A stretch of 64,000 nt of DNA from Balanoglossus misakiensis. Its lineage: Eukaryota > Animalia > Hemichordata. Shown piece after piece: positions 3,940 through 64,000 of the stretch; within the stretch, counting starts at the first letter, position 1; each line of letters begins with the position of its first letter. The DNA is taken from assembly GCA_040954595.2 (NCBI GenBank), contig CM082577.2, positions 12,495,654 through 12,559,653 on the forward strand, written 5' to 3'. A model generated the notes under the pieces. The model made no database searches, was not told where the DNA came from, and saw only the letters and a list, made by a program, of their open reading frames with translations. The position numbers were made by a program, and so were the translations under genes.

Positions 3940-3976
3940 TTATTTTGGTGCAGAGACCAGGATATCGGATTCCGTG

Positions 3977-20446: not shown

Positions 20447-20450
20447 TTAA

Positions 20451-33603: not shown

Positions 33604-34703
33604 ATGGCATCTTTGCAAGCAGAAGACTGTCCAAAAACACCTACAATGTCAAATCTAGATCTGTTCAAGGTGTATCTTCTTGAACTGGCAAAGGAAATAA
33701 GCCAAGGTGGGTAGATCTGTGTGTACAGTTGTTTTCAGAACTCAGACTGTACAGAAATAAGGTCAATTTGTCATTCCTACATGTAACGACTAGGATATGA
33801 TTCCAATTTTTCAGAGCGAGACCCATTACTCAGAGAAATTGCACCCAAAATTAACTACTGCACAAGAGTGTAGATTTTATTTCACATAACAGTTTATACA
33901 TTGTACCAATCATTTTTTGCTGACAACTATAATTGTTTCATGTCCAGAGCAGTTACTCTGAGACATAAAATTCTTGAACTGTCAAGTGTCAGTGTGAATT
34001 TATGCCATATGTGTTTTATAATATGATCATGGCATCCATTATGGCTGACAGACTATGTTTGATGATGACATCCCCATTGTTAATGTACAATTTAACTTTT
34101 AAACCTGATTCAGAAACGTTTGAATTTAGCCAATAAGACATCAGTACAGTAGGTCATAGTGCAATGAGGAAAAAGATTGTTTAATTCTCTTTTTTTTCTT
34201 CCTCAAAGATGACCTGTGTAGCTTGGTAGAAGCACTGGATGCTGTTGAGAATCCATCAATCCCTGAAAGTGTATCAGACGAAATTTTGAAATATGATCGT
34301 CCGTACGGTTTGTTTAAAAAATTATGTGACTATGGACATTTATCAAGGGACAATCCTGAAACTCTTATTTATCTGTTGAAAACTGCCAAACTTTACATGT
34401 TGGCGAAGCATGTAGAAGTTCGATATGAGAAAAGCTTTGACAAAGACTGTCCATATGAGGAAGTGACAAGAGAAGTAGAGTCTAGGATGAAAGCTGATAG
34501 CCAGAAACAGATAAGTGACAGAAGTGGAGAGAGTTTGCCAACATTTCCATCTGAGAGGACCTCACCAGGAAAACAGTTACCATCTCCCTCACAGCATCCA
34601 AGTCCCTCTGGAGAAGTACAGTCAATGCCATCAACTCGTCCCAAGATTCCAGCACTGACAGCCACTCATTCCAAGACTCAAATATCCACCACAGAATCTC
34701 ATG
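33604..34703 (+). CDS. Gene A exons 33604-33706 and 34209-34703: N-terminal death effector domain (DED) plus Pro/Ser linker
   Basis: ATG at 33604, phase-1 GT-AG join gives LFKVYLLELAKEISQDDLCSL...LFKKLCDYGHLSRDNPETLIYLL, a DED-like pattern. Confidence 0.8.
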
Positions 34704-35509
34704 GTAAGCTCTTGGCAAGTTAGGTAGCGGTAACATTTTTTTGAGTGGGTATTTTTGACACATTCATAAAAAAATTGCGTCAAACTCCTTTCAGCCTACA
34801 TCGTACACCTGTCTAGTTCAATATTTATTAAACAAAATCAGCAACATTTCGAGTACAAAGTTCACGCGCCCTGGAGGTTGTTTTGATCCCAGACCCACTG
34901 AGCTATTTTTAGACATATAGTCAGCCGGTAAGTGTACAGTTTATGTTGACCATTGTGCAAATAGATCGGCTGTTTCCTATGTGTCAATATTGACGCACTG
35001 ATGATTAATATTTTTGTGTCAAGTGAGTATTTTGTGTGTCAAATACATTATAATTTTGCACAACAAGACCTCTGACTACATGTAGTAGCATTTTACAAGT
35101 ACCATATATTTTATATACATTTTTCAAAAATTAAACATAAATTAAATAATTTTGATTTTGAAAGATATGAAAAGATGGAAACAAATTAGTCTATCTTATT
35201 TTTCAGCTGGTCAAAGTGATTGAAACACAGGTTATCAGACCTTTTGAAAAAGTGCCAATTGTGCAGTTCAAATGTCATCGCCGGTTAGATGCTCTTCTCA
35301 TTAATCACAGAAAGTGTTTTATTACCATTCTACGTAATGACTATAAGCATATAAAGTAAAATGAAAATTTAATTTTGAATAGAAAAATAGGTAGTCGAAC
35401 ATTAGGAGCAGTCAAACACTTAGAGTGCTTGTGGTAATTGAAATATATTTTGAAGAGAATTCAACAGACACAAATTAATTCACACATGTTTACTTTTCAA
35501 ATACTTCAG

Positions 35510-35737
35510 GTATGTCATATGTCGGTGATGTTGCTGCTAGCAGTGCAGTTAGTTCAGCTGAAACACAGAAAGAGATGACAACAATGATGAAAGATCCAGA
35601 AGGTGAAACCACAAGTGTACAACACCACATAGACATACATGATTTACGTCGTGCACTGTATCCCTTGATGGCAAGACTGCATTCATCATCACCTCTGCAA
35701 CAAACTGATTCAGTAGTTATGGACACTAATGAGAAAG
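35510..35737 (+). CDS. Gene A linker exon (phase 1-1)
   Basis: AG/GT boundaries, open frame, paralogue at 53512-53739. Confidence 0.8.
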
Positions 35738-36073
35738 GTAAGGTTCTTTACAAAAATATACTGGAGCACTTTAACCAATCAGTGATACCCAGGTGCAAGT
35801 ATTGACAGCTACACATGTACATGTACCAGCACCATTATATTCATACTCATCAATCATAAGTAATATGGAGAATTATCTTGCATTACCAGTGTGGGATAGG
35901 AATTTGTGGACATGAAATTCTCACAACCAAATCTATGCAGCATGATTAAAAAAAATAGAAAACAAAATCTGCTTCTGTCATATGGCTGTGTAAGTTTGCA
36001 CTTTCTTCACAAATTCATAATCATCACAAATAGGTTTGCATTGCAAATCAATAAACACATCTTCCTTTTTCAG

Positions 36074-37291
36074 ATATGGACCTCAAACCGACCATTATAT
36101 TCCTGGCTGAAAAGTGGAATCGTGTGAAGGACACTGTATCTGCCCTCAACTGTCAACTTGCCAGCAGTGTAGCCGAAGACAGACAACGTAAAACATGTTG
36201 TGTTGTTTTGGAGGCAAGTGACGAAGAAAGGAAAGATGCAGCTGATTGTGGAGTTGAGTTGATACTTCCAAGTTTGAGAAAAGATGTGATTAAGAGATAT
36301 AAGAATGACACACCGAAGCCAGATTGGTTTCTTTCTCCAGAGACATTCTTCACAAATCTCACACAGTTACAGAATGTGAAGTACATTGTGGAACATGTCC
36401 AGTCTTCAACTTCATTGCTGGTGGCAAATGTCTTCAGAGATCGATATCATCATTTCAAAGCTGCCAATGTTGTACTAATAAATCATGCCATCACAGGATC
36501 GGATGAGATAAACAAAGACCACTTGAAATTTGCTGAGGAGGCATCTGCAATTTTCTCAATTGGACCTACTGTCTTTGAACATTACAAGAAACTCTACCAA
36601 ACAACCCAAATTCCAGTAAGACACGAATTGTATCTTCCAAGACCAGAGAAAGAATTCTTTGATCTTAATGTGGATCAGATACAAAAAACAAGTGACTTGA
36701 AACAAATCCTGACTGTGATAACTGATGAAGATTTGGAATCCACACGATATAAAACACTGGCAGCTGAAGTTGGAAAAACAGCCGGTACATTCAACCAGAT
36801 GCAAATGACGGTTCCATTGTGGTGTGTACGTACTCCCTCGGAAGCTGATGTTGCTGACACAAAGACTTTTCTTACAGACAACTTAAATTGCCCACTCATA
36901 GAACCAAACACTTATCCCTCATACGGCTCTCAAGATGATATTTACAGAGATTTACGTCAGAGTAATGTCTGTATTATACCACCTGATGAGCCATTTAGGA
37001 TGGAGGGATTACGATCCATTGCTGCAGGACTACCTGTGTTGGTTCCAGAAAGAACTGCCTTAGCAGCATTTATGAACACGTGCTTTGACCATGAAGCAAA
37101 GTATTTCCTGTATGACCCTTCTGTTGATGGGGAATTGTCAATACAGATCAATACGATGTTGAACACAACACATGCAATACCCATGGCGACACGTTTGAAG
37201 AATATGTATCTCAGTCACACAGAGATTACCGACAGTCATGAAAAGTTCAGAGCTTGTTTCAAAGAAGTTCAGAGTACACAGTCTGCACAAA
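36074..37291 (+). CDS. Gene A exon: GT-B fold, GT4 (Glycos_transf_1)-like domain
   Basis: FLAEKW...VSALNCQLA N-terminus, INH, FSIGP, and C-terminal EPFRMEGLRSIAAGLPVLV resembling EGFGLxxLEAxAxGLPV. Phase 1-1. Confidence 0.85.
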
Positions 37292-37574
37292 GTAAGTATT
37301 TTTCTTTTTTGCACACATAATCCAAAAACAAAAGTGAAATTTCACTTCAGATGATTTTAACAAGCAACACCTCATCCTGTTCCAGCAAAATGAAAGTGAA
37401 CTTGAAAAATGATGATGGTGTGACTTTTCTGTAACTCTTTTTTTGGAACAAATATTTTATAAAAAACAGTGAATGATTACATTGTGACAGGGAAGCATTT
37501 TAACAACTTGTAAATACAGGTAAAAGGTTGGAATACTTTTAGTTATTGTATTTTTGTTTCTTTTTTTCTACCAG

Positions 37575-38463
37575 TTCCAACACCTCAATCACAATTGCAG
37601 AATGGAAAGACTCCTTCAACTCATGAAGCTTTAGGAACTTTTGAAGATGGCCAGCCTCCCCAGTCGCTCTCACCAAAGCCAGAAAACCTGGGTAAGTACA
37701 CTTTATTTGATAAGTTGTAGGCTCCTGAAGATTAAAAAAACATGATTACAGAAACAAATGTTCATGAAATAAAGAAATAAAAAACTGGCCTTTTCCCCCT
37801 GCAATATGTAATTTGTAAATCTTCATATTTTTATTACAAGTAATCAGTCATTAAACTTTATTTTTCTGTTTTCTAGTGATAACGGTAAGTTCCAAATCAC
37901 CAGTCCACAGTGTAAAGAGTCCTTTAACTGATGAAGGTGTAGGAAGTTTTGAAAATGCCTATTCTTCCCAATCACTCTCACCCCAGCCACAGAACCCTGG
38001 TAAGTAGAGTTTGATTGCTTACTTTGATCGGACCCAGTAGTTTAAAAACTAATTACTTTGACAATTTTTAATAAATTTTTATCATTAAATGGGAAATAAC
38101 ATTGGCTTTTTTACATTTTCAGTTTAAGTTTCGTGTATTGAATGTTTTTTAATCAACTCTCTGTGTCGAACCAACCAATTTGTAACTTTCGGACAAATGT
38201 GGAAGTTAAGATACTCAAGATTGTCATAACTTTATGAAACTCATAATTACTGGTATATGCAACAATATATAATTTCCAGCTTTACCTGCTTGCCCATGTT
38301 ACTTGTGAAAAATGTGAAGGGTACTGCACTTTTCTGAACTAACTTTTGTTTTTAAACTTTATCCTTACAGGAAGTCCAGTATCTGCTGTTGTTTCAGATG
38401 ATAAACCAACAAGTGAAACTCACAAATCAAAACTGATACAACGGAAAAGGCCATTGATGCCAA
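37575..38463 (+). CDS. Gene A small linker exons 37575-37691, 37877-37999, 38371-38463
   Basis: Each is AG/GT-bounded, a multiple of 3 in length, phase 1-1 and open. Confidence 0.7.
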
Positions 38464-38956: not shown

Positions 38957-39493
38957 CTGTTCAATTTGAAGTAAATCTGAAGTTTGAAGAAAAGAAGATG
39001 AAGATGGAGATGGAGATGGAAAAGATGAAAGTGCCGCAGAGAGAGAAAGAAATAGAGCTACAAAAGGTGAAGATGGAGAGAGTAAAGATGGAGCATGAAC
39101 TGAAACAGAAAGACAAGGAAACAGATATTAAGATCAAAGAGAAGAAAATCTTATTAAAACAAATAACAGCACTTTATGAACTTCAGATAAAAAGAATCAC
39201 AGATAGAGATGACCCAGATATGATAGAACAGTTGGATGAAGCCTTTGAGAAATACAAAGCAAGACTTGATGGAGTTGTGCAAAGCTCTTTGTGGTTCTTA
39301 CTAAGTTTCCTTTCAGAGGACGACATTGATTATTTCTGGCAGAAATACAAAGCTGGAGAAGTTGGTGAAATGCTGAGTGGTATCCTAATAACATCCGAGA
39401 TGAGATCCCTAGCAGAGAAAGCTGGATGTGTTGTCAGAATCAGAATGAAGATAGATGAAAAATAGTATGAGACTGTCAAACACATACTTCATT
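38957..39493 (+). pseudogene. Gene A exon: coiled coil plus TRADD-N-like domain, in-frame TAG at 39463
   Basis: LDGVVQSSLWFLL...FWQKYKAGEVGEMLSGILIT...IRMKIDEK*YE pattern. Donor GTGAGT at 39494. Confidence 0.65.
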
Positions 39494-41096
39494 GTGAGTA
39501 TTTAAGTCTTCACAAGATTAATAAATGCATCACTCATACTTTTCACAAATTCCTATTCTAACACATCATAGTGTATATCTACCTATCTGCCCAGATAACA
39601 TCAATGTATCTGAGCTACACTCAGGGCAGATAGACATTTCCTATACTTAGAGACGTTCATTTTCATTAGCTTACTCCTGAATTGGATAAAAATTAACAAG
39701 ATTTAACTCAGTACTTGCACTGTTGATATAATCTGAAATAGTTGTATCACTAAAATAAAACTTTGATTTGAAAGAAATGTGTTCCTAAATGACTTTTTGA
39801 GAAAGGGCAGCCAAACAATATGTTTTAGCGTAATTTGTGTTTTATTACATATAGTGTAAATAGACTAGAGGGAATACATATTTTATTTTTATTACATACG
39901 TCTGCTGTCTACACCATCCCTGAGAAGACCTGGGTGAGAACTGTTGCATACGATGAACGGGAGAGATATGTTTTAGATCATGTTGAAGAGAACAGCCAAG
40001 CTAAGTATTTGATACAGCAGTCCAGATTTCATCCAATTGTGGGTGAATTGAGATCGGAAGAATTTTTCTTTCCTTCTCTTGTGTCTTACTGGTATGAGAA
40101 TTGTTATACTTTACCATCAACTTTGACAGAAGCAACTGAATACGCAATTAAACATCATGTAGAGATGTATTGTAGGGAACATCAACTTGAGATAGAGAAT
40201 GTTTGGGATGTAGTGCAGGACAGGCTTTGTGAAATTGGAGAGAAAGTATTTCAAGACTTTGAGAAAAACAAGACTGTGTGCCTACAGTTTGATGCCTCTT
40301 ATGAAGAGAATTATTTATTTGGTTTGTTGATGACCCATCCATGTTATTCTGACAGTGAATCAGAGAAATCTATCTTTGTTAATGTTGTAACACGTGACAA
40401 TTATGAGAGTGACGATTATGATAGCGACGGTTATGATAGCAGTGTGGTTCAAATGTCATCTAAATGTCTTTTTCTGAATCAGTATATACACTTTTATGCA
40501 GTTGCTTTATATATCAGTAAAACCAAAGACATATTTCTGAAGCAACAAACAGTTGAGATGTTGGTAGAGTTCATGCCAGTGACTCTACATTATGTAGCTG
40601 GTATCCTTCACGAGAATGCAATATTCTTCTTCGAAATACTCACAAATTATATTATGAAGAAATATCCAGTGACCTATGACTGTTTTGCACTACTTGGGTC
40701 TTGTCTTCTTGAATCAAAATATCCAGAAAAGTTTACAAGCATGATTCAACAGTTATTAAAACCTCAAACATTAGAACTGTCAGAATATGATTTTATAAAT
40801 AGAGTCTCTCAGCAAAGTTTGCAAGCTGCATCCCTTATTATAGGGAACACTTCTGTTGTTCAGAATATCAATTTGACAAGCGATAAAGAAAGGGCATACA
40901 TATCAGAGGAGTTCAACCAACATCTGAATGTAATGATTGAAAATCCATCATCAACTGTCAAATTTCAAGTGAAAAACTCAACTGAATTGACTGTGGTCAC
41001 TAGATATATCACATTCCACAGGCTTCTAATGACTCACATACATAAATCTGTCAGAGGTCACAGTGAGGTCAGTCTGAGGGGTGTGACTATTCATTA

Positions 41097-41791
41097 AACA
41101 CGTTCCGAACTAATTTCGGAATTTCCAGACAATTTTCGGAATTCCTTTTAAATTTTAGAAATTTTTCATCAGATATAAGTGTTACTATTTATTGGACATG
41201 TTTTTATCATTGTTTGCTTTTTAAGGTCATTCTCATCCCCAAAAAAGCCGCTTTAGGCCTCATGTTCAGTAAAAAATTCAGCTGAATTTTCCAGGGATCA
41301 CACAAATCAGTAAAAAATTCAGCTGAATTTTTTGATGAACAAAGTCTTTCAGTAAAAAGTCAGCTGAATTTTTCTCTGATTTGTGTGATCCCTGGAAAGT
41401 TCAGCTGAATTTTACACTGATCACACATTTTTGGGAAGGTCTGGCGCAAAATAAAGGATGACAAAGTCTTTCAGTAAAAAGTCAGCTGAATTTTTCACTG
41501 ATCACACATGTTTGGTAAAATTTTCAGCTGATTTTTCATTCACTGACATTATCTGTGAAAAAATCAGCTGAATTTTTCACTGATTTGTGTGATCCCTGGA
41601 AAGTTCAGCTGAATTTTACACTGATCACACATTTTTGGGAAGGTCTGGCGCAAAATAAAGGATGACAAATGTAAATCCAATGTCACATTTGTAAACCTCT
41701 AAGTATTGTACACTCATTCTATTAAGTATATGCAAATAGAACAGATAATTTTTTCGGAATGTGGAATTCCGAAATTAGTTCGGAATGTGTT
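41097..41791. mobile_element. TIR-bounded insertion containing a palindrome array
   Basis: TIR AACACGTTCCGAACTAATTTCGGAATT / AATTCCGAAATTAGTTCGGAATGTGTT. No TSD visible. Confidence 0.8.
41265..41668. repeat. Array of about 8 TCAGCTGA-centred palindromes (about 41-bp spacing) with a 90-bp direct repeat
   Basis: Repeated AAAAATTCAGCTGAATTTTT variants. 41376-41465 recurs at about 41579-41668. Confidence 0.85.
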
Positions 41792-42874
41792 CCAAGCAAT
41801 TGATGACAAATTTCAGGATGTTGCTAATGAAACGATTCAGGCACTTGTCAAAGCATTGGGATCACTGCCTCTGTTGAAATCACTCCATTTCACTGGATTT
41901 AATGAAGCATTTATCACAAAGGTTTTCGAAATAATGGGAAATGAAAATGTGTCATTAAAAGTAAGGAAGTTGGAGTTGCCACATAATGATATAGAATACA
42001 CTTTTATTGGTGTACTTCTGAGAGCTGTCAAATGTTTTCCATTTCTGAAGGATATAGATGTCTCGAACAACAAGTTAGGTTCCCTTGGGTGTGTAGCATT
42101 GTTACCATTGGCTGGTGAAATCAATGTTCTGTTGGAGAATAATGGTGTGGAAGAAAGTCTTGAAAGGTTGTTAGAGTGTGAACAGATCGCAAACCAGGTT
42201 GGAGATTTCAAATCACATGTGACACACTTCAAAACTGTGGATGAAATTTTCAATTTGCACAAACAACTAAACTCTGTAGAACAAATATGTGTTTCAAGTT
42301 TATCTTCTGACATTACCAACTTCCTATGTTTAAATTTGGCTTTCTTCAAGAACTTAAAACATTTAGTTATTATTGAGTGTGATTTCACTACTGACAATGC
42401 TAAAGTTGTTGCTGACAGTTTTAAGCTTCTGTTGTCTCTGAGACAATTAGACGTCAGTTCAAATAACATAGGAGATTATGGCATTGAGTATATTGGTAGA
42501 AAACTGCATGTACTGGAACATCTTACTGATGTTAATTTTAGTAACACTGGTATCAGTTTGAGAGGAATAGTTGGTTTGTTGAACACTGTGCGACAGAATC
42601 AACAACAAATTGTCAATGTTGCAAACAATGACATCAGGGACCTTAAGTACATCCTACTACTTGTTCCACGGGAACTGCAGACATGTTTCCATAATGTCAA
42701 TTTTGATGAAGACAGTCTAACGCTAGATAAATTAGTATTCATCAAGGAAATTGTCAAAGCATGTACAAATGTGGAGGTGAGCGAGCAGTGGAGTCAGGCT
42801 GAATTTGAAGACTTCTGTGATGGGTTAAGTATTCTTTCATGTGTACGCACTCTGAAACTTAGTGGTTGTCATTT

Positions 42875-45590
42875 TGGAGATGTCGGTGCAGAGAGTTTAA
42901 GTAAAGGGATGAAGAATATGACTGGGCTGACACATCTGGATCTTAGTCGTAATAACATTGGAGATGTTGGTGCAGAGAGTTTAAGTAGAGGGATGGGGAA
43001 TATGACTGTGATGGAATACCTGGATCTTAGTCATAATAACATTGGAGATGTTGGTGCAGTCGAGAGTTTAACTGTGATGAAGAATATGACTGGGCTGAGA
43101 CACATAGATCTTAGTCATAATAACATTGGAGATGTTGGTGCAGAGAGGTTAAGTAAAGGGATGGAGAATATGTCTGGGCTGGGACACCTGGATCTTAGTT
43201 ATAATAACATTGGACATATTGGAGCAGAGAGTTTAAGTACAAAGGTGGGGAATATGACTGGGCTGTGGCACCTGGATCTTAGTCATAATAACATTGGAGA
43301 TGTCGCTGCAGAGAGGTTAAGTAAAGGGATGGAGAATATGTCTGGGCTGGGACACCTGGATCTTAGTTATAATAACATTGGACATATTGGAGCAGAGAGT
43401 TTAAGTACAAAGGTGGGGAATATGACTGGGTTGTGGCACCTGGATCTTAGTCATAATAACATTGGAGATGTCGCTGCAGAGAGGTTAAGTAAAGGGATGG
43501 AGAATATGTCTGGGCTGGGACACCTGGATCTTAGTTATAATAACATTGGACATATTGGAGCAGAGAGTTTAAGTACAAAGGTGGGGAATATGACTGGGCT
43601 GTGGCACCTGGATCTTAGTCATAATAACATTGGGCATATTGGTGCAGAGAGTTTAAGTACAAAGGTGGGGAATATGACTGGGCTGTGGCACCTGGATCTT
43701 AGTTATAATAACATTGGGCATATTGGTGCAGAGAGTTTAAGTAGAGGGATGGGGAATATGACTGGGCTGAGACACCTGGATCTTAGTCATAATAACATTG
43801 GGCAAATTGGTTCAGAGAGTTTAAGTACGAAGGTGGGGAATATGACTTGGCTGAGGCACCTGGATCTTAGTCATAATAACATTGGGCATATTGGTGCAGA
43901 GAGTTTAAGTAGAGGGATGGGGAATATGACTGGGCTGAGACACCTGGATCTTAGTCATAATAACATTGGGCATATTGGTGCAGAGAGTTTAAGTAGAGGG
44001 ATGGGGAATATGACTGGGCTGAGACACCTGGATCTTAGTCATAATAACATTGGGCATATTGGTGCAGAGAGTTTAAGTACAAAGGTGGGGAATATGACTG
44101 GGCTGAGACACTTGGATCTTAGTTATAATAACATTGGAGATGTCGGTGCAGAGAGTTTAAGGTGGCATTGCATGAAAAGTTGTGATTTTTGCCAAATTTT
44201 ACTTTTTTACATAAATCGGTAGGCCTAATACTGACCCACAACCTGACTAATACGTCTTGGCGGAAATGGTGCATAATCACCCCAAAATAGCACTTTTCTG
44301 AATGAGTTCACAGCTTAACAAATAGGTGTCAACAATGCAAATAGCCGTTTTTCTCAGTTTGCATTTTCGCTGCTCTTGACAACTTCGGACTAAAATAGCT
44401 TCGCCCTGCGTTGGCCGAATTTGCTCAAATTTTGACAGGGAATTGTGTATGACCCATCCAACAAAACGCTCGTTTTGTTTGTCGATAAAGTGTCCCTGGC
44501 GGGAATAAACTCTGATTCAATACAACTCACCGTGAATTTGATCAAATTTTCTGAAAATCTAACTTTTAAACGCTGTTACTCCTCAATGGAAGCAGATAAC
44601 GCAAAACAAAATTAGCGTTTTTTTGCACGTGTACTCTAGTTTTGAATGACATATTAAGATGCATGATGCATGGTCAACTTTTTTACCTATTTTAAATTTC
44701 ATGACATAATATCAAAAAATGGTTTTTTTCACCCAAAATCGCCACCATTTCCGGGGATCAATAATATTTGCAACTCAAACAAAAGTTCAAAATCTCAGCT
44801 TCCAGAATATATATGGTTTATGGGGGTTTTAACTTTTTCTTTGATGAGAAATAGGCCTCTGAAAAAGTCTTGACGGTTTCATGCAGTGCCACCTTAAGTA
44901 AAGAGATGGGGAATATGACTGGGCTGAGACAACTGGATCTTAGTCATAATAACATTGGATATTTTGGTGCAGAGAGTTTAAGTAGAGGGATTGGGAATAT
45001 GACTGGGCTGGCACACCTGGATCTTAGTTATAATAACATTGGAGATGTTGGTGCAGAGAGTTTAAGTAAAGGGATGGGGAATATGACAGGGCTGAGACAA
45101 CTGGATCTTAGTCATAATAACATTGGGGATGTTGGTGCAGAGAGTTTAAGTAAAGGGATGGGGAATATGACTGGGCTGAGACAACTGGATCTTAGTCATA
45201 ATAACATTGGGGATGTTGGTGCAGAGAGTTTAAGTAGAGGGATTGGGAATATGGCTGGGCTGGGACACCTGGATCTTAGTTATAATAACATTGGGGATGT
45301 TGGTGCAGAGCGTTTAAGTAAAGGGATGGGGAATATGACTGGGCTGAGACAACTGGATCTTAGTCATAATAACATTGGGGATGTTGGTGCAGAGAGTTTA
45401 AGTAAAGGGATGGGGAATATGACTGGGCTGGGACACCTGGATCTTAGTTATAATAACATTGGAGATGTTGGTGCAGAGAGTTTAAGTAAAGGGATGGGGA
45501 ATATGACTGGGCTGAGACAACTGGATCTTAGTCATAATAACATTGGAAATGTTGGTGCAGAGGGGTTAAGAAAGTTGAAGAATATGACTT
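42875..45590 (+). repeat. 84-bp coding LRR array 2 (23 units; 15 before and 8 after the Kolobok insertion)
   Basis: Same unit as array 1 with different variant residues. Confidence 0.95.
44161..44893. mobile_element. Non-autonomous Kolobok-type transposon, copy 3, inserted in an LRR unit
   Basis: TTAA TSD (44157-44160 / 44894-44897) within GAGAGTTTAAGTAAA, TIR GGTGGCATTGCATGAAA. Confidence 0.92.
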
Positions 45591-45764
45591 GGTCAGAGGA
45601 TCTTGTTGGCAAAAGGACTTATTTTGGGTATTCTACATTAGCTGGTGCAGGTGTCTCATCTGGTAAATCTAAAATGTTGGTTGAGCCATATACCACGTTT
45701 AAGTCAGAAATTAGACATAAAAAAAGTCATTCACTAGAAAAAGAATCTGGTCGCAGTGAAAGTC

Positions 45765-51186: not shown

Positions 51187-51218
51187 AAGGTATAAGCTGA
51201 GGCCTGCCAAAGAAGTTT

Positions 51219-52001: not shown

Positions 52002-52970
52002 ATGGCATCTTTGCAAGCAGACGACTGTCAAAGAACACATACGGGTACAAAGTCGTATTTTGATCCCTTCAACTTGTATCTTATTGAACTGGCAGAAGAC
52101 ATAATTGAAGGTGTGTAGAACTCTGTTCCTTTGCTTTCAGAATTCAGGGTGTTCAGAAATGTTGCACTGTGCATGTATTCTCTTCCCTACATCAGTGTAT
52201 GACTGCAATTTCTCAATGGCTAGATCCATAACTAACAGATGTCTCAATTAAATTCACTCAATATTTCGTGCTGCACAAGATTGTAAATTTGATCCCACAT
52301 TTCAATGCATTATATGCATGGTACGTACCATCAGTGTGTTACACTGTACATTTTGAAATTGTTATAGCGGAATTACCAACTGTGACAACTTCAAAAAGTC
52401 TCATTTGACCTTTTGAATAAGACTCAGAACAGAGCTATTATAGCAAGTTTATTCTCTCTTCTCTTTTTCTTACAGATGGCCTGAGAAGATTGGTAGAAGC
52501 AGTAGCTGCTTTAATGAACCCTCCAATACCTAAAAGTGTAAGGGAAGACATTTTGAAAAGCAATCGTCCATACAGTTTGTTCGAAGCATTATGTGACCAT
52601 GGACATTTATCAAGAGAAAAACCTGAAACTCTTATTCAGCTGTTGGAAATTGCCAAACTTTATGTGTTAGCGAAGCATGTAGAAGTTCGATATGAGAAAA
52701 GCTTTGACAAAGACTATCCATATGAGGAAGTGACAAGAGAAGTAGAGTCTAGGATGAAAGCTGATAGCCAGAAACAGATAAGTGACAGAAGTGGAGAGAG
52801 TTTGCCAACATTTCCAACTGAGAGGACCTCAGCAGGAATACAGTTACCATCTCCCTCACAGCATCCAAGTCCCTCTGGAGAAGTACAGTCAATGACATCA
52901 ACTCGTCCTAAGATTCCAGCGGTGACAGCCACTCATTCCAAGACTCAAATATCCACCACAGAATCTCATG
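52002..52970 (+). CDS. Gene B exons 52002-52110 and 52476-52970: N-terminal DED plus linker
   Basis: Paralogue of gene A: MASLQADDC...FNLYLIELAEDIIEDGLRRL...LFEALCDHGHLSREKPETLIQLL. Confidence 0.8.
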
Positions 52971-53511
52971 GTAAGCACTTGCAGCATTAACAAATATACA
53001 TTTGTACATTCATATTATACAAATACTGTAATCACCCTAAATGTTCAACCACAATAAAATAATTATGATTTTGAAAGAGATGAAATAATACTATAGGAAA
53101 AAAATGTTTCTCTTAGATGGTCAAAGTGGCTGAAACATGGCATTCTGAGGTCATCCGACCCTTGAAAAAGTGCCATGCACAATATATTCCAAAGGTCATG
53201 GTTAGAGGCTGTTGTCATGACCATATATCCTACATTAGGTTTTGAATGCTCTCGATTTTTTTTCCTTTGTCTTGTCTTTCTTTCCAGAAATGCTCAATAA
53301 AAAATATTTAAAAAAAGAATTGAATGCTCTCATTTGTAACCTAGTGCCAAATGTATTTGGAGGTAGTGGTAGTCTGGTAGTTGTGTATTTTATATATCAA
53401 ACACTTAGAGTGATTATCAGAGTATTTAATTATTAAATAATAATTTTAAAAGAATACCACACATACGCAATGAATTCATCCATCCATATGTTTATCTTTA
53501 ATATACTTCAG

Positions 53512-53739
53512 GTATGTCATATGTCGGTGATGTTGCTGCTAGCAGTGCAGTTAGTTCAGCTGAAACACAGAAAGAGATGACGACAATGATGAAAGATCCA
53601 GAAGGTGAAACCACAAGTGTACAACACCACATAGACACACATGATTTACATCGTGCACGGTATCCCTTGACAACAAGACTGCAGTCACCATCACCTAGGC
53701 AACAAACTGATTCAGTAGAGATGGTCACTAAAGAGAAAA
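53512..53739 (+). CDS. Gene B linker exon (phase 1-1)
   Basis: AG/GT boundaries, paralogue of 35510-35737. Confidence 0.8.
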
Positions 53740-55130: not shown

Positions 55131-56339
55131 ATAATGACCTCAAAATGACTACTGTGTTCCTGGCTGAAAAGTGGAATCGTGTGAAGGACACTGTATCTGC
55201 CCTCAACTGTCAACTTGCCAGCAGTGTAGCCGAAGACAGACAACGTAAAACATGCTGTGTTGTTTTGGAGGCAAGTGACGAGGAAAGGAAAGATGCAGCT
55301 GATTCTGGAGTTGAGTTGATACTTCCAAGTTTGAGAGACGACCTTGAGGATGCCTTTGGAAAAGATGAGCCAGTTCCAAAATGGATTCTTGTACCAGAGG
55401 CTTACTTTACAACCCTCACAGAGTTACAAAATGTGGAATACATTGTGGAACATGTCAAGCCTTCAGCAAAACTCCCGGTTGCAAGTGTTTTGAGGAAACG
55501 ATATTTCAAAGATGCTAAGATTATTCTCATCAATCACACCATCCCATCAGCTGAAGTACAAGGCAAACACATCAGTTTTGCTGAAAGGGCATCTGCAGTT
55601 TTCTCTGTTGGACCTACTGTCTTTGAACATTACAAGAAACTCTACCAAACAACCGAAGTTCCTGTAAGACATGAATTGTATCTTCCGAGACCCGAGAAAG
55701 AATTCTTTGATGTTAATGTGGATCAAATACAAAAAACAAGTGACTTGAAACAAATCCTGACTGTGATAACTGATACAGCTGTGGAATCCCCACGATATAA
55801 AACACTGGCAGCTGAAGTTGGAAAAACAGCCGGTACATTCAACCAGATGCAAATGAAGGTTCCATTGTGGTGTGTACGAACTCCCTCAGAAGCTGATGTT
55901 GCTGACACAAAGACTTTTCTTACAGGCAACTTAAATTGCCCGCACATAGAACCAAACACTTATCCCTCACACGGCTCTCAAGATGATATTTACAGAGATT
56001 TACGTCAGAGTAATGTCTGTATTATACCACCTGATGAGCCATTCAGGATGGAGGGATTACGATCCATTGCTGCAGGACTACCTGTGTTAGTTCCGGAAAG
56101 AACTGCCTTAGCAGCATTTATAAACACATGCTTTGACCATGAAGCAAAGTATTTCCTGTATGACCCTTCTGTTGATGGGGATTTATCAATAAAGATCAAT
56201 AAGATGTTGTTAGCAACACATGCAATACCCATGGCGACACGTTTGAAGAATATGTATCTCAGTCACACAGAGATTACTGACAGTCATGAAAAGTTCAGAG
56301 CTTGTTTCAAAGAAGTTCAGAGTACACAGCCTGCACAAA
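55131..56339 (+). CDS. Gene B exon: GT4-like glycosyltransferase domain
   Basis: Paralogue of 36074-37291, open frame, phase 1-1. Confidence 0.85.
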
Positions 56340-56733: not shown

Positions 56734-58982
56734 GCAGTCCAGAATATGCTGTTGTTTCAGATGATACACCAAGTGAAACTCATAAATCAAAATTGATACG
56801 ACGGAAAAGGCCTTTGATGCCAAGTAAGTTATGTTTCCGTCAGTGATGCAGTATGCTTTGTCATGATTTCACTACAAAGTCTAGTTTCACAAAATTACTC
56901 AGTGGTTCTAAACGCCATAGGTTCTAGGGTCATAAATTTTACTGTATCTTTTACTGGTTATCGTATGAGTTACTTACCGATTTGGAGTGTATTTAATGGA
57001 TTATTTACATAAAAAAGAGAGACTTTGCTTGCCCCCCCCCACAAAAATGCTGCCAGTACCTCTTCCTCGCCTGCGGCTCGGGCATCATCAATATTTTGTA
57101 ACACACCATGCAGCGAACCCTCGATCGTGATTCGTCAATACGCCGCCACGTGACCATAGTCATTTCGAACTGTTCCCTAGGGCATCATTTCGATCGGTTT
57201 CTGCCCGGTACTGTTGCCCCGTCTTGATATAATTCCGTGTTTGGTGTGTTATAAAACACATGATGACTGACATATTCAGGCAACAGTGTATTTTTGATGA
57301 CCTCGGGACTGTTAGTCACACCAAAACAGTCTGTTTTCCCTTGGGCTATGCCCTCGGGAAAACAAGACTGTTTTAGTTGTGACTAGCAGCGCCCTCGGTC
57401 ATCAAAATACACTGTTGCCCTCATTGTCAGTCATCATGTGTATAATGGTCAGAGATCACCATCCCTCTTGCAGGCTTCAAATCGTGATGTTGCCCTCGCT
57501 ATCATGTGTTTAGAGGTTATAAACGGCTAGCGAGGGTATTTGGTTGCGGTGAAAATTAGCATATTTGGCAGGAAATAATCACCGAGTGAAGCGAGGTGAT
57601 TATTTCAATCAAATATGCTAATTTGCAGGTCTTATATCCGTACCAAATACCCGAGCGCACCGTTTATAACCTCATTTTAATATGATTTTGCTTGATAAAG
57701 ATAAACAATTTCATTTTTTCAAATCTGTTGTTTGGTTGGGAATAAATCATGCTAGTTCAAGGGCCTCATTGGGCACTGTTCCAGAACATGCAAGCTGAGC
57801 TCCTGCAAACGTGTTCTAGAATTTCTTAAGTTACGTGATTTTATGCCACCACCAATAGAATTCATAATGTGTGTTCTATTCAGGCGCGTTCTCTTCTACA
57901 TGTTCTATTTCGGTTACTTTTTTTAAACTACGGGTATTCACTGTTCAGGGTCCAGGTACAGGGTCTTCTTGTTGAGAATATAATCTCCGGCTCCAGCCAA
58001 TCAGCGACCAGGATTCACAACAAGCATATTATAACATTATTTAAATAACCACATTACAACCATGTACATACATGTATGCTAGTGTTTTGTTGAAAGGACT
58101 CTTCAAATGACTAATAAAATCAGAACTTGAGCAGCAACCATGCATGGTTTAACTGCTGATTCTGGCTCTGTGAGCACAGGTTAGGCAATCAAACACAATT
58201 TTATGTGATTCCTCAGGGTGATCAACTCACTTTGACAATGTATATGACTATCCAGTCTCCACCTTTGATTTGGTAGTAGAATAATCTCACTACAATGTAC
58301 TTGCATCTCTCTTACCATAGGTAGAGACGATGCAACACAAGTAACCGAAGAGAGCAGCCCTGAAAAAAAATTAAGAGAAGATAAACCCAGTCGAACTAAG
58401 CTGTCTGGGAGGGATCTGGAAGAAATGAAAGTGCTGCAAGAAAGGCTGAGAGAAAAAGAGTATGAAAAGGAACATTTGGAGAAAACACTCAAAGAAGTCA
58501 GAAATGAAAACAAAGTACTATTAAAGAACTTAACTGGCAAACTTTCCCAAGTAAAAAAAAGTGAAACTGAGATAGAAAGTTTGAAGAAAGAGATTGACCA
58601 ACTTGAAGAACGGAATATGCTAAAACAGAAGGCAATCAATAAACTAATTGAATTAGACGAGAGTACAAGAACCCAAGGACCGCATCATCAAGGTGTGTTT
58701 TGAGCACTTAATGTCATAGGTTTGCCTGTCAACCACACTTAGTTTATCAGCAATATAAAAGGTCCAGTGCATATCAAATGAAAAACAGACTTGGAAGGCT
58801 CATATTGTTAGTTGAAACCTAAGAAATGTACATTTTCAAGCTTGACTTATAATTGTTACAATATATGCTGGTGTATTAATTTATTGTCAACATTACTCTC
58901 AGAAAAATAACTCCCCTAAAATATCTGCATTTCAGAGGATATCAAAGACCAACGATCCCTTCTGCTCATCGCTGCTAATGAG
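56734..58982 (+). CDS. Gene B exons 56734-56823, 58321-58692 (coiled coil), 58936-58982
   Basis: Phases chain 1-1, 1-1, 1-0. E/K/L-rich heptads in the middle exon. Confidence 0.72.
57249..57445. repeat. Fold-back palindrome of about 195 bp (hairpin-type non-autonomous element)
   Basis: ACACATGATGACTGACA...TGTCAGTCATCATGTGT arms with a small central loop. Confidence 0.8.
57514..57673. repeat. Fold-back hairpin of about 160 bp with GAGTGAAGCGAG apex
   Basis: GAGGTTATAAACGG / CCGTTTATAACCTC and inner pairing arms. Confidence 0.75.
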
Positions 58983-58988
58983 GTAGGC

Positions 58989-59097
58989 CAATCTGATTAA
59001 AATCAGATGTAGTGAACGGCGACGTGTTTTTTTTATGCTGTACACTAGCATGTTTAAACCACGTCACTGTTCCCTACATCTGATTTTAATCAGATTG
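58989..59097. mobile_element. 109-bp MITE inserted at a splice donor
   Basis: TIR CAATCTGATTAAAATCAGATGTAG, direct repeat GAGGTAGGC on both sides. Confidence 0.85.
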
Positions 59098-59294
59098 GAG
59101 GTAGGCATGACGATTGAAGTAAAATCATTTTATGAAGGCCTTGAAATTACATACAATAGCCCTGGAACTTTTCTCTCGCTTGCAAATGCTTTTTAGTGTT
59201 AGGACAGAATTTAGTTTACAATTTAACCTTCAAAAGTGAAGATTTCCAGACCCGTTTCTTTTTTATAATGATTGCTTTTTTCCCCTTTATAAAG

Positions 59295-61989
59295 GAAAAA
59301 TGTTCCTACAAATTACCATGTGGATTTTCACTCGAGGTCCCACCAGAATGTGTTGAAGAAGACACAACATTGTTGGTCACATATAACAAGAACATCACCA
59401 AGGTCCCTCTTGCAGACTTTGAATGGTATCAGTCAGATGTCCTTGATTTTGCGGCAGATCACATTACACTGAAGAAACCAGTCTACCTTGTGCGGAAATG
59501 TCTGAATGTTCAGCCCTTTGAGAGAGAACAGATCATCCTGACAAGCAAAAATGGTAAAACATGGGAAGAGTTAAACACTGTTGAAGTAAGTACATCTGCA
59601 CAGTGAAATTTTACTACACTTATCAATGCCATTCTTTAGTGCTATTATTTCAGTACACACATATGTATGAGTATGTAGATGTCTCCATATTTTATCAAGA
59701 AAAAGTGGTGAAAATTGGAATGTACCACACATCCTCCCTCCAAGATTGCTGACAGTATAACAATATGACCAGGCTCGTCATAGCAGCCCCAGTCATGACA
59801 TTGGTCCAATCATCCGCTATATAATAGTAAACAGGTGAGATTTTCACGATGTTGGTCGGCCAACCTACATACCCTCCAGCACAATATAACACCCAAACAA
59901 GTATAAGTGTACTTCTTGTTGCAGTTGTACATAAAAGTCCTTGCTAAAATTCATAAAATCTGTTTGTGAACATTGTATAAAATTGTTGACATACAAGCAT
60001 ACACATGATCGCATGACATTTTGTATCCTGTTTTCTATCCATTTTTACAAAGCATTTACATGGATACGTAATTACATTATCAGTTATTGCAGCCACTTGC
60101 CATTTGGCAAAACAAAATGCAGTTTCTCAATAGACCAGTATGTTTCACTAGATTCTGTCCATACACTTATAAAAGTAAAATGGTATTAATTGTTAAATGT
60201 TTATTCATATACAGGAAGACAATCATATCAAAGTAGAAGTTCGCCATTTATCACATTTCATGGCAATTTCAAGACCTTACAAAGACATGTTTGATATCAG
60301 CAGAGAAGGTGGAAAATTTTCCTCAAAAAAAGATGAACGGATTAGCATTGTAGTTCCGGAAGATGCCATAGAAGATGAGAAGTCTCTGATATTAGAGGTA
60401 AATATATCATCATCATCATCATCATCATCATCATCTACCCATGCCTTTTATTACCCCATTAGAGATTAACATGACACAAAATTAAAGTGGAGCTGATCAG
60501 TGCCAGATTGCTTGTTTGATTGATTTTGCTACAATCTTTGACAGGCTACAGCCAACAGCAATGAAACCCTTAGGTTTGTCATTTTTTCACAGATACATGC
60601 AATTCAGCATATTATCAGTAAAAATGCACTTTCAGGTTTCAAGTCCAAAAAACGAGATTGGACTCCCAGCCAGTTTACCAAAAGTGCAGTCAGCTGACTC
60701 AGGATCAGAGATTGATCCATAATTGCAGAAAATGCAGGCGTGGGCCAGTGATGGACAATATGCAATATGGAAATATTTTCTGAGTCTATGTAAAGATCAC
60801 AGACTCGCAAATAAAAATGCAATTTATAAAAAAGGCTGGTGCCTGCAACTACATGTAGTACAAATGTATACCGGTGTATCTGCTACTCATTGATGATCAT
60901 TGCTGTTGCAGTTAGATCTAGGTCTGTGTCCTAACTTTTACTGTTTGTATTGAAGGTCCATGACTGTAGCTATAACACAGTTGATAGTGTCTTCCCAACT
61001 GGTGGAGAATCTCTCGATGTGTCCTTTGCATCCATAGTGTGCATCAATCGAGGCCAGAGGGAAAGCATAAAGTTCAAGAAGCCTGTAAAACTAACCATCC
61101 CACTCCCACCAGACATTCCGGGTGTTTCCTCTGATGATACAGAACTGTGCATACTGAAAGATGAAGCTGATAATTGTGAATGGAAAGATGTAAGCGAGGA
61201 TTGTCCTTTTACTGTACAACATGATGTTGTGGAATTTCACACTCAGACACTCTGTGGGTAAGTTGAAATCATTTCTTCCAAGTACAACATCATATTGACT
61301 TAGACTTGGAACGTTATGACTGCAGAGTTATGTTCACTATAATTCCTTGGATGCATCAGGCCTAATATAATATATTGTATCTGCAGGTGATAGTAAGGTT
61401 TATGTACTGTACCGTATGTAAAATGTATGTTGAACAGTTTGCACCATGGGGAGATCATTCAATCCATATTTCGCCATTTTCATCGCTTGAAAGTGTCTGG
61501 ATTTTTTTTTTCAGGTATGCATTGGTAAGATTCTTCAAAGGCATAATGCAAGGAATTTCTGATATGCTTTCAACAATCACAAACTTCAAGAAGGCTGGAA
61601 GTCAGCTTGTAAAGATACTCCTTCTTCAGCACAAGGATAATGCAAGACGCTTAAGATGTGACCTGGTAGAGACCAAGGGACCATCCATGTCAGATCCATT
61701 GCCAGAGAAGTATAAACAATATGATCATGAAAAAAGAGCCGAGAGTCCTGATATTCAGATGAACAGTGAAGACGTTGTCAGAAATTCTGTACCCACAGAG
61801 GGGGCTTTTGTTCTGGAGTCTGTGCTGAACATGAGTCAACCATACTACCCTTATACTGATAACCACTGGGATGTCACTGTTGCTGTGAAACCCGAGCATA
61901 AGAGTTCCAGTGATCTGGTTGGACATATGCTGTTCCTGAAAAATGATGAGCTGCAACCAAAAGTCGAGCTCCAATTCGCAATGCCAAAT
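59295..61989 (+). CDS. Gene B exons 59295-59585, 60215-60397, 60956-61257, 61515-61989: ZU5-ZU5-UPA-like module
   Basis: Phases chain 0-0-0-2-0 with no stops. Motifs GFSLEVPP, SDVL, KKPV, GKTWEEL, EGGKF, IVVPEDAI, FKKPVKLTIPLP, WKDVS, as in PIDD/ankyrin ZU5 tandems. Confidence 0.8.
60405..60435. repeat. (TCA)n microsatellite
   Basis: About 10 tandem TCA units just inside the intron. Confidence 0.9.
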
Positions 61990-62848: not shown

Positions 62849-62870
62849 GAGAGTCAAGTGCAGCAAATTG
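62849..62870 (+). CDS. Gene B putative 22-nt micro-exon (ESQVQQI)
   Basis: Pyrimidine tract plus AG, donor GTAACA. Converts phase 0 to phase 1 as the flanking exons require. Confidence 0.5.
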
Positions 62871-63138
62871 GTAACAGTTTTTCAATTAGAGGTACTGGTA
62901 AGTTTCAAAAATAATGCTATGTCATATTGGTAACACTTCTAAATCGAACATCTCCTATTACTGAGGTTGATTTAATTGACATTTGTATTGAAACATTGCA
63001 GATTTCTTGATTTAATTTAGGCTTTGTGTTGATTTTTCCAACACAGTTGTTCATTTCACCTACCGTGCATAACAATAAATATTCAGGTGGCTAGCTTAAA
63101 GTAGCTATAGGATGACCTGAGTCAGTTATGCTTAAAGT

Positions 63139-63363
63139 GAAGGGGTCGTCGCATCGCGTTTGTTTGTTTATAAACATTACAATTTATCCACAAATCCCTA
63201 AAATTAGATAATTCTTTGAATGATGCAGCCAACCGTAGCGTAGACTGGGCATGACAGCAACTGAAGATTATAGTAGGTCGTGGCGACTGCGGTGAGGTTT
63301 GTGCTGGTATGGGAGGACATATTCTCATCAAGGGGGTTACCCACGCGGCACGACGACCCATTC
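63139..63363. mobile_element. About 225-bp MITE, copy 2
   Basis: Homologous to 13781-14008. TIR GGGTCGTCG / CGACGACCC. Confidence 0.75.
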
Positions 63364-63744
63364 TCTATAAGTTGTAAAATGTGAAGCTTGTCTATTTTGA
63401 AGAAAAGTTTTCCTTTTTTCTGGCAAAACATAGCTTTCAAATGTAGGTTTGACCAATATTTCACTGTGGTTACTATATACAGATCTAACCATTGTGAAAT
63501 TGTGGTGAAAGCTACAATGTACAACAATTTGTAACTGTAATTTTGCATCATGAAATTTTAAATCCTAATCTCATAATATACTAAAACTCTAAGGAAAATA
63601 AATAGAAACAATTGTTCATACAAGTATCTTGTCAGAATATATCCAAATGGTCTATAACATCAGATTTGGGAAAGTCTGTAATTTGTGTGTTATCGTTACT
63701 TACCTTTGTATGATAACACTGACACAGTAACATTATCATTACAG

Positions 63745-64000
63745 CTTCACAGGGTTCTGAAGCAACAGAACTTCATCCGCTGAATATCCTTTTCATTGAA
63801 CTTGAGAAGCATTTAAATGAAGATGAAGAACGTACACTCATAGGCCTGTTACGTGGTCGTCAAATATTCAAACGAGATTTACAGAAGTTGAAATCTGCTG
63901 CAGAGGTATTTGCATATTTGCAAGAAAGGGGCCATATCAAAGATTACAATTTAAAACTTCTGAAGGAATTGTTCTTGAAAATGCAACGACCACATTTATT
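63745..64000 (+). CDS. Gene B exon encoding a second DED (runs off window; not in ORF track)
   Basis: LNILFIELEKHLNEDEERTLIGLL...LKSAAEVFAYLQERGHIKDYNLKLLKELFLKMQRPHL, a DED pattern with an RxDL-like RPHL end. Confidence 0.8.

What the first reader, a model, noticed from the sequence alone, without database searches (positions are those of the whole stretch)
33604..64000. One DED-glycosyltransferase head joined to two unrelated tails: a modular immune-receptor pair built by phase-1 exon shuffling
Seen: tandem genes A and B share a putative promoter and five coding exons (DED, linker, GT4-like domain, RKRPLMP exon), and every intron in this head is phase 1. After the RKRPLMP exon (38463 / 56823) similarity stops. 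A continues into a TRADD-N-like domain, an NLR helical region and 23 LRR units. B continues into coiled coil-ZU5-ZU5-UPA-DED. Known: glycosyltransferase-NLR fusions have been reported in corals, and ZU5-ZU5-UPA plus a death-fold domain is the PIDD/ankyrin module. Inference: DED-GT is a mobile cassette, and the pair could act as a linked sensor/adaptor system signalling through DED contacts. I do not recognise DED-GT-ZU5-ZU5-UPA-DED as a described protein.
Basis: partly seen in the sequence, partly recalled or inferred. Interest (0 to 1): 0.85.

Follow-up and report, generated by a model that had tools for sequence, protein, structure and literature searches.

The report
Tail-swapped dead-enzyme immune sensor genes
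Two neighbouring genes, likely from an acorn worm, share a front half built on a sugar-transferase domain that lacks its usual catalytic residues; one is a broken copy of an already described immune gene family, and the other is an unbroken hybrid predicted to splice that front half to a likely self-cleaving cell-death signalling tail found behind many other front halves in the genome, so it likely works as one mix-and-match intracellular sensor rather than as half of a linked pair.

Summary
The anatomy is real: five shared head exons, all head introns phase 1, then different tails. Three corrections. (1) Gene A is broken: a stop at 39463, a lost splice acceptor and two transposon insertions. 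Its type (GT4, TRADD-N, NLR helical region without a nucleotide-binding domain, LRR) is the family's ancestral form, seen in 13 of 17 other close copies, and was described in hemichordates in 2021. (2) A and B are not sister copies, so a linked pair is unlikely. (3) Shuffling is two-sided. The head also sits before ankyrin (2) and NACHT (1) tails. B's ZU5-ZU5-UPA-DED tail has 11 close copies behind at least five other kinds of head. B is an open 1,376-1,385 aa chimera; I did not find its exact domain order in the papers searched. Its GT4 lacks the donor-binding motifs yet is under purifying selection, and its first ZU5 keeps a PIDD-type H-L/F-S site. Best reading: a pseudo-enzyme sensor wired to a self-cleaving DED output; no RNA or function is shown. 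The scan noted dead-GT4 tail swapping earlier on other DNA of this genome. Verdict: new variant of a known kind.

The parts
33604..34703 (+). Gene A exons 1-2 (33604-33706, 34209-34703): divergent DED split by a phase-1 intron, then a Ser/Pro-rich linker
35510..35737 (+). Gene A exon 3, linker (phase 1-1); copies also occur after TRADD-N in a paralog
36074..37291 (+). Gene A GT4-conflict domain in one phase 1-1 exon; donor-binding motifs degenerate
37575..37999 (+). Two A-only phase 1-1 linker exons (37575-37691, 37877-37999), present in variable number in LRR-type paralogs and absent from B
38371..38463 (+). Gene A RKRPLMP exon, last exon shared with B
38957..39493 (+). Gene A coiled coil + TRADD-N-like exon with premature TAG at 39463-39465 (ORF ends at residue 961)
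39894..45925 (+). Gene A terminal exon remnant: NLR-type HD1-WHD-HD2 and LRRs (23 regular units); acceptor reads AC; a single 1,298-2,561 aa open frame in 9 of 13 LRR-type paralogs
41092..41792 (.). Insertion with 27-nt terminal inverted arms (41097-41123 / 41765-41791) inside the coding exon; absent at this site in 3 of 3 paralogs shown
44157..44898 (.). 742-bp TTAA-flanked non-autonomous element with 21-nt inverted ends inside the LRR exon; 97% copy elsewhere in the genome, another at 19711-20451
52002..53739 (+). Gene B exons 1-3 (52002-52110, 52476-52970, 53512-53739): DED and linkers, all phase 1
55131..56339 (+). Gene B GT4-conflict exon (phase 1-1), predicted pseudo-enzyme
56734..56823 (+). 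Gene B RKRPLMP exon
56824..58320 (+). Junction intron (phase 1): head-family homology ends near 56896, coiled-coil-donor homology starts near 58045-58077, repeat fragments between
58321..58692 (+). Coiled-coil exon (phase 1-1), itself mobile (also lies before a NACHT exon in a paralog)
58936..61989 (+). ZU5-ZU5-UPA cassette: entry exon 58936-58982 (phase 1 to 0), 59295-59585, 60215-60397 (H-L-S motif near 60245), 60956-61257, 61515-61989
62849..62897 (+). Short linker exon (acceptor conserved in paralogs; donor at 62897 or 62870, both phase 1 and open)
63745..64000 (+). Terminal DED exon of gene B; ends with a stop 49 nt beyond the window

Best explanation
Gene B is an unbroken hybrid whose front half comes from a GT4-TRADD-N-LRR gene family and whose back half is a ZU5-ZU5-UPA-DED block shared with 11 other loci; it likely encodes a cytosolic sensor in which a predicted catalytically dead glycosyltransferase would act as ligand-binder or bait and a predicted self-cleaving tail would pass the signal to DED proteins, while gene A is a broken copy of the parent family. 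Shown: exon chain, open frame, phases, copy census, motif loss, purifying selection, A's lesions. Inferred: recombination inside the phase-1 intron 56824-58320 joined the halves. The protein cuts itself once at H-L/S in the first ZU5, as PIDD does at S446, and the two halves stay associated. Binding to, or attack on, the GT4 half frees or clusters ZU5-UPA-DED, which recruits FADD- or caspase-8-like DED proteins. Intact A-type paralogs are NLR-derived proteins in which GT4+TRADD-N replaces the nucleotide-binding domain.
For:: B's 13 exons have canonical sites and are open for 1,376-1,385 aa. B's GT is nested among LRR-tailed copies, and all 5 non-self homologs (P. flava, Glandiceps) have the TRADD-N-helical-LRR tail, so LRR is ancestral; 11 other cassette copies (82-95% aa in the first ZU5 exon) lie behind distant GT4+TRADD-N (6), another GT4 (1), PARP14-like RRM/KH (1), a CARD-like ORF (1, by eye; no Pfam hit), DED without GT (1) and a TRADD-N fragment (1); entry exons are phase 1. 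A, B and their close copies, and 5 of 5 other-species homologs, lack the Gly-Gly loop and the GR...KG motif, and the EPFG...E motif is changed. All three are kept, with small variations, in 9 more distant GT4 copies of the same genome, and EPFG...E aligns to a solved GT4 (2R60); dN/dS is 0.22-0.66 for the GT exon (7 pairs; 6 intervals below 1) and 0.30-0.45 for ZU5-ZU5 (4 of 4 pairs below 1). H-[LF]-S ends the first ZU5 in B and 11 of 11 close copies; the second ZU5 has no His in any. PIDD cleavage positions.
Against: There is no transcript or protein evidence, so splicing of 56823 to 58321 is predicted only. Pairwise dN/dS includes history before the fusion and does not show selection on the chimera itself. 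UPA and terminal DED dN/dS are 0.56-1.48, with intervals spanning 1 in 8 of 8 comparisons. The cleavage motif is not family-wide: P. flava P0010 has H-F-C, while P0006 and P0012 lack the His, and ankyrins carry the same fold without known cleavage (recalled). In human PIDD the single-cut fragment did not kill cells (PMC11637483, passage), so the output need not be death. Many copies are decaying: 5 of 14 LRR-type genes, and the C10, C15 and C1 cassette loci carry breaks, so B could be a transient product. Head-tail linkage at the other loci rests on order, strand and phase; only the C2 locus was modelled exon by exon. An immune role is inferred from domain content.
Confidence: 0.55

Rival explanations
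1. A and B are a genetically linked sensor/adaptor pair signalling through DED-DED contacts.
For: They are adjacent, co-oriented and share a DED head.
Against: A has four lesions. A and B are not sister copies. None of the 13 other LRR-type copies has a ZU5 exon within 16-20 kb downstream. The arrangement is head-to-tail inside a local cluster with further GT copies on the same contig.
Confidence: 0.07
2. B is a neutral or short-lived recombination product of a birth-and-death gene family, with little or no expression.
For: Broken relatives are frequent; the junction intron holds repeat fragments; this head-tail join occurs once among 19 close GT copies.
Against: All 13 exons and 24 splice sites are intact over about 12 kb. 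B's terminal DED is only 48-56% identical to its nearest copies yet open, which implies a long coding history for the tail.
Confidence: 0.22
3. The GT4 domain is an active effector with altered chemistry that glycosylates invader or host proteins and is released by ZU5 cleavage (the effector model of Kaur et al.).
For: The His of the N-terminal lobe and the first Glu of EPF are kept; the domain is under purifying selection; GT4 sits in effector positions in bacterial systems (PMC8195603, passages).
Against: Three separate donor-binding elements are lost together, and the GT4s in front of other ZU5 cassettes are degenerate in different ways (6 of 6 examined).
Confidence: 0.12
4. Gene A is not dead but makes a shortened DED-GT4-TRADD-N protein of 961 aa that may act as a decoy or dominant-negative regulator (compatible with the main reading for B).
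For: All four lesions lie at or after codon 962, and none in the 2.9-kb head. GT dN/dS against the nearest copy is 0.22. GT4+TRADD-N-only proteins are listed for amphioxus.
Against: The stop removes the last 10 residues of the exon. Tail dN/dS (0.41-0.52) is not clearly higher than in the head, so the lesions may simply be recent. Four lesions missing the head by chance is not rare (roughly 1 in 7 by length; my estimate).
Confidence: 0.25

Closest known systems
GT4-TRADD-N(DEDD2 clade)-LRR proteins of hemichordates, cephalochordates and cnidarians (Kaur et al. 2021, PMC8195603; main-text passages and searches of supplements 4 and 6)
   Same: Gene A's order of domains. The supplement lists CARD+GT4+Death+TRADDN+Death+helical-region+LRRs, GT4+TRADDN+Ankyrin, GT4+TRADDN+P-loop NTPase, DED+GT4, GT4+ZU5 and ZU5+ZU5+GT4.
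   Different: None of the 66 ZU5 mentions in supplement 6 shows GT4 followed by ZU5+ZU5 and a DED. The main text has no occurrence of exon, intron or decoy, and the 12 of 22 passages shown do not call GT4 inactive. Supplement 4 is cut when stored and I saw 10 of 96 ZU5 and 26 of 1,690 GT4 places, so B's order may be listed there.
PIDD1 and the ankyrin/UNC5 ZU5-UPA-death-fold supramodule (PMC11637483, passages; PDB 4D8O)
   Same: ZU5-ZU5-UPA plus a death-fold domain; a cleavage-type motif at the first site. Most full-length relatives of the UPA exon are LRR-ZU5-UPA-Death proteins.
   Different: The terminal domain is a DED rather than a Death domain, there is no LRR, the second cleavage motif is absent, and there is a DED-GT4-coiled-coil head. 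P. flava already has ZU5-UPA-DED (XP_070536463.1) and CARD-ZU5-UPA-DED (XP_070531668.1).
Animal NLRs (NLRP3, NOD2, NLRC4) and coral glycosyltransferase-NLR fusions (the latter recalled, not read)
   Same: HD1-WHD-HD2 followed by ribonuclease-inhibitor-type LRRs in the A-type tail.
   Different: No nucleotide-binding domain; a phase-1 intron and the GT4+TRADD-N exons stand in its place.
NLRP1/CARD8 FIIND (ZU5-UPA) sensors and plant NLR integrated decoys (both recalled)
   Same: A variable N-terminal part joined to an autoprocessed ZU5-UPA and a death-fold output; a dead enzyme used as bait.
   Different: Two ZU5 domains and a DED; neither functional degradation nor bait function is tested here.
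Phase 1-1 exon shuffling in lancelets (Huang et al. 2014, PMC4284660, passages)
   Same: Promiscuous domains spread on 1-1 exons (51% of shuffled domain exons against about 28% background).
   Different: Here both a multi-exon head and a seven-exon tail with internal phases 0,0,0,2,0,1 move as blocks within one family.

Membership tests
GT4-TRADD-N-LRR family (gene A) | GT4-conflict domain | tested here: met
   PF20706 E 1e-23, 84 bits against a cut-off of 26
GT4-TRADD-N-LRR family (gene A) | TRADD-N after the GT4 | tested here: inconclusive
   Atlas cosine 0.91 to PF20694-bearing clusters; no Pfam hit on the exon; 42-53% identical to the same region in 5 hemichordate proteins
GT4-TRADD-N-LRR family (gene A) | Helical region and LRRs after TRADD-N | tested here: met
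GT4-TRADD-N-LRR family (gene A) | Intact reading frame through the LRRs | tested here: not met
   Stop, lost acceptor and two insertions
NLR (gene A) | NACHT/NB-ARC nucleotide-binding domain with Walker A | tested here: not met
   No Walker A in three + frames of 38900-46000; no NACHT hit in A or in 5 homologs; the fold match starts at NLRP3 residue 375
NLR (gene A) | HD1-WHD-HD2 then LRR | tested here: met
   Intact paralog model, Z 16.2 to NLRP3 and 13.2 to NOD2; unrelated rows at 5.6 or below
PIDD-like proteins (gene B) | ZU5-ZU5-UPA fold | tested here: met
   Through homolog P0006: collinear exon matches and model to 4D8O at E 2e-32; direct Pfam ZU5 hits on single exons are weak, E 0.04-0.16
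PIDD-like proteins (gene B) | N-terminal LRR and C-terminal Death domain | tested here: not met
   DED-GT4-coiled-coil head and C-terminal DED
PIDD-like proteins (gene B) | Two H-F-S autoproteolysis sites (motif letters recalled; positions from PMC11637483) | tested here: not met
   First site present as H-L-S; second lacks the His in B and 11 of 11 close copies
PIDD-like proteins (gene B) | Actual self-cleavage and platform assembly | not testable with these tools
   Needs protein work
Active GT4 glycosyltransferase | Gly-rich loop, donor-binding Arg/Lys, EPFG-x-x-x-x-E motif (roles recalled; the last aligned to 2R60) | tested here: not met
Linked sensor/helper receptor pair | Two intact, co-inherited genes whose pairing recurs | tested here: not met
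   A broken; 0 of 13 other LRR-type copies followed by a ZU5 exon within 16-20 kb

The most novel reading that the evidence does not exclude
Acorn worms run a two-sided, germline plug-and-play receptor system: dead glycosyltransferases, PARP14-like RNA-binding arrays and other baits are swapped by phase-1 recombination onto one standard self-cleaving ZU5-ZU5-UPA-DED trigger or onto an NLR chassis that has lost its ATPase, giving invertebrate tripwire sensors that fire through caspase-8-type DED filaments, a convergent counterpart of NLRP1/CARD8 and of plant integrated decoys.
Probability: 0.25. Interest if true: 0.8.

Novelty: new variant of a known kind. Interest (0 to 1): 0.5.

Why it matters
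The expanded GT4 'conflict' domains of marine invertebrates have been proposed as effector enzymes, and I found no functional test of them in the papers searched. Here the receptor-fused copies lack the donor-binding motifs while motif-intact copies sit in the same genome. That gives matched pairs for a direct enzyme-versus-bait test. The shuffling is recent enough (heads 89-97% and tails up to 95% identical) that a breakpoint can be placed inside one intron, so domain shuffling can be studied in progress. An NLR chassis without its ATPase and a PIDD-type tail ending in a DED are both simple to test for how they switch on.

Tried and rejected
RNA support: no RNA holder was listed for 55131-62000, so no reads were laid; this is no evidence either way. 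A profile search of PDB sequences with the ZU5 family alignment was swamped by LRR matches and was uninformative; the fold search was used instead. Pfam on single ZU5, UPA and TRADD-N exons was weak or empty. The Atlas search of the helical exon gave only NACHT-associated leads with low family agreement. Rescue of gene A by cryptic splicing around the two insertions is possible on paper (in-frame GT/AG pairs exist), but it does not bypass the upstream stop. A shared origin of B's junction with the DED-CC-ZU5 gene on C15 was considered; the two keep different lengths of donor intron and the C15 RKRPLMP-like exon is degraded, so separate events are more likely. Positive selection on the variable GT segment (codons 65-165) was tested and not seen: dN/dS 0.27-0.64 with dS raised as well, which points to gene conversion between old alleles. 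Six literature searches listed no paper on DED-GT4-ZU5-ZU5-UPA-DED or on inactive GT4 receptors. Apart from three papers read in passages I saw listings only, and subscription journals are mostly missing. The 27 DED mentions in supplement 6 were not displayed.


Full report
Setting. The window is G000:C2:12495654-12559653 in a 319.5-Mb, 72-contig animal genome. The five longer homologs found for the GT exon are Ptychodera flava (54-61% identity) and Glandiceps talaboti (44%) proteins, so the source is likely an acorn worm.

Observation. Both exon chains were rebuilt from splice sites. A and B share five coding exons, and every head intron is phase 1 (7 of 7 in A, which has two extra linker exons; 5 of 5 in B). 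DNA similarity ends 39-49 nt into the intron after the RKRPLMP exon. The GT exons match PF20706 GT4-conflict at E 1e-23 and 2e-25. The N-terminal DED is split by intron 1 and divergent; spliced exons 1+2 score 14-16 bits on a profile of validated DEDs against at most 5.4 in 200 shuffles. The stretch just upstream of both ATGs contains a splice acceptor, so it is not a promoter. A 78-bp block further up, also found at 3 other family loci, may be the first exon or promoter.

Gene A is broken. It has a TAG at 39463 where 16 of 16 aligned paralogs have a sense codon, and AC where 13 of 13 have a CAG acceptor. A ~700-bp inverted-repeat element sits at a site that is continuous coding sequence in paralogs, and a 742-bp TTAA-flanked element with a 97% copy elsewhere interrupts the LRRs. 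In 9 of 13 LRR-type paralogs the same tail is one open frame of 1,298-2,561 aa; 4 are broken. A model of an intact paralog's helical region (pLDDT 84) aligns to NLRP3 375-744 (Z 16.2) and NOD2 429-826 (Z 13.2). That is the part after the nucleotide-binding domain (boundaries recalled). There is no Walker A motif. The family is thus an NLR chassis with GT4+TRADD-N in place of the ATPase. Kaur et al. 2021 (PMC8195603; passages) describe GT4 before TRADD-N with LRRs after it in hemichordates, cephalochordates and cnidarians.

Gene B is intact. Thirteen exons give 1,376-1,385 aa, ending 49 nt past the window. Its tail exons match P. flava P0006 in order, whose model matches ankyrin-B ZU5-ZU5-UPA-DD at E 2e-32. 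The last exon is a DED (E 8e-12).

Census of heads. The GT exon has 104 matches in the genome (a lower bound), 19 of them at 63% identity or more, A and B included. I fetched 16-20 kb downstream of the other 17 and of two more distant copies. Of the 17, 13 continue to TRADD-N, helical region and LRRs, 2 to ankyrin exons, 1 to a coiled-coil exon and a NACHT exon (E 2.5e-24), and 1 breaks off in TRADD-N. DED exons lie upstream in 10 of 17. On the GT tree B is nested among LRR-tailed copies and A is sister to a copy about 230 kb away; holding A and B together is rejected (p-AU 3e-132). The exon is a mosaic (64-69% against 90-96% identity in one 200-nt block), so the tree is approximate. The LRR tail is ancestral and B is derived.

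Census of tails. The first ZU5 exon has 19 matches, 11 of them other copies at 82-95% aa identity, each followed by the same ZU5, UPA and DED exons. Upstream on the same strand lie GT4 domains only 21-26% identical to B's, with TRADD-N-like exons (6 loci), another GT4 (1), PARP14-like RRM/KH (1), a CARD-like ORF (1, by eye), a DED head without GT (1) and a TRADD-N fragment (1). The cassette entry exon and the coiled-coil exon start in phase 1, and the C2 locus models as a chain of 1-1 exons. Three of the 11 loci carry breaks. In B's junction intron, head homology ends near 56896 and donor homology begins near 58045-58077, with repeat fragments between. Outside this genome, 32 proteins match the UPA profile. 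Of the 29 scanned, most are LRR-ZU5-UPA-Death; 2 end in a DED (both P. flava), 2 carry a GT4 after the UPA, and none has GT4 before it. That library keeps one protein per 50% cluster, so this is not proof of absence.

Mechanistic clues. In an alignment of 43 GT4 domains, the A/B clade and its five homologs from other species lack the Gly-Gly loop and GR...KG, and have a changed EPFG...E motif (EPFRMEGLR in A and B). Nine more distant copies in the same genome keep these motifs with small variations, and the six GT4s examined in front of other ZU5 cassettes are degenerate too. EPFG...E aligns to a solved GT4; the roles of the motifs are recalled. GT dN/dS is 0.22-0.66, so the domain is maintained for something other than canonical catalysis. 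The first ZU5 ends in H-L-S or H-F-S in B and 11 of 11 close copies, and the second has no His. PIDD is cut between the ZU5 domains and again before UPA, and only the twice-cut fragment killed cells (PMC11637483, passage). B would therefore make a once-cut, PIDD-C-like fragment ending in a DED. The ZU5 pair is under purifying selection (0.30-0.45); UPA and DED are not distinguishable from neutral.

Reading. B most likely encodes a cytosolic sensor-adaptor: a dead GT4 as ligand-binder or bait, joined by recombination in a phase-1 intron to a self-cleaving tail that recruits DED proteins (0.55). Splicing, cleavage, ligand and output are inferred. Rivals are a transient chimera (0.22), an active GT4 effector (0.12) and a linked A/B pair (0.07); A may survive as a truncated protein (0.25, not exclusive).

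Novelty. Gene A's family and the promiscuity of GT4 are in print, and phase-1 shuffling is known from lancelets (PMC4284660, passages). I did not find B's exact order, the loss of GT4 motifs or the exon-level mechanism in six searches or in the parts of Kaur et al. that I saw; supplement 4 was seen only in part. Two earlier unreviewed notes of this scan report dead-GT4 tail swapping with the same ZU5 tail on other DNA of this genome. I had reached those points before the look-up, and they are not independent support. Verdict: new variant of a known kind, interest 0.5.

Noticed in passing
window 14328-17663 (+): A single 1,111-aa open frame with Roc and COR-A domains (E 2e-13, 2e-17): a ROCO gene exon upstream of the pair.
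   Followed up: partly
window 19321-29839: Remnant of a third LRR-type gene: LRR array 22978-25634 and a 4.5-kb 3' region 89% identical to that of gene A, with no head exons in 1-33000; preceded by a copy of the TTAA element (19711-20451) and retroelement fragments.
   Followed up: partly
window 79-8905: Retrotransposon-like ORFs (protease/RT/integrase-like by eye), apparently two nested LTR elements, with a 348-bp direct repeat at 3592 and 8558.
   Followed up: no
GT exon, alignment columns 200-400 (about window 55330-55530 and 36270-36470): A mosaic block with about three allele types (64-69%, 76-84% and 90-96% identity) distributed across paralogs regardless of tail, suggesting gene conversion in the N-terminal lobe.
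   Followed up: partly
L153, L155, L156 (upstream of L010, L013, L014): Exon 2 of three paralogs carries long arrays of a 57-bp in-frame unit in the linker after the DED.
   Followed up: no
LRR-type paralogs (L033-L064): Regular LRR units range from 10 to 56 per gene and the short linker exon after the GT is repeated a variable number of times.
   Followed up: no
L039-L040 and L047 (after L005 and L009): The swapped-in tail is a run of 99-nt, phase 0-0 single-ankyrin exons.
   Followed up: partly
G000:C15:9010439-9031100 (L116, L117, L059): Two adjacent chimeras: DED-linker-coiled coil-ZU5-ZU5-UPA-DED without a GT (degraded), then GT-TRADD-N-linker-coiled coil-linker-NACHT.
   Followed up: partly
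G000:C9:4218800-4235700 (L118-L120): Duplicated PARP14-like RRM/KH exons lie upstream of a coiled coil-ZU5-ZU5-UPA-DED cassette, a possible RNA-binding head on the same output.
   Followed up: partly
G000:C19 and C16: Large arrays of distant GT4 copies (dozens on C19, many in open frames of 600-1,000 aa) that were not examined.
   Followed up: no
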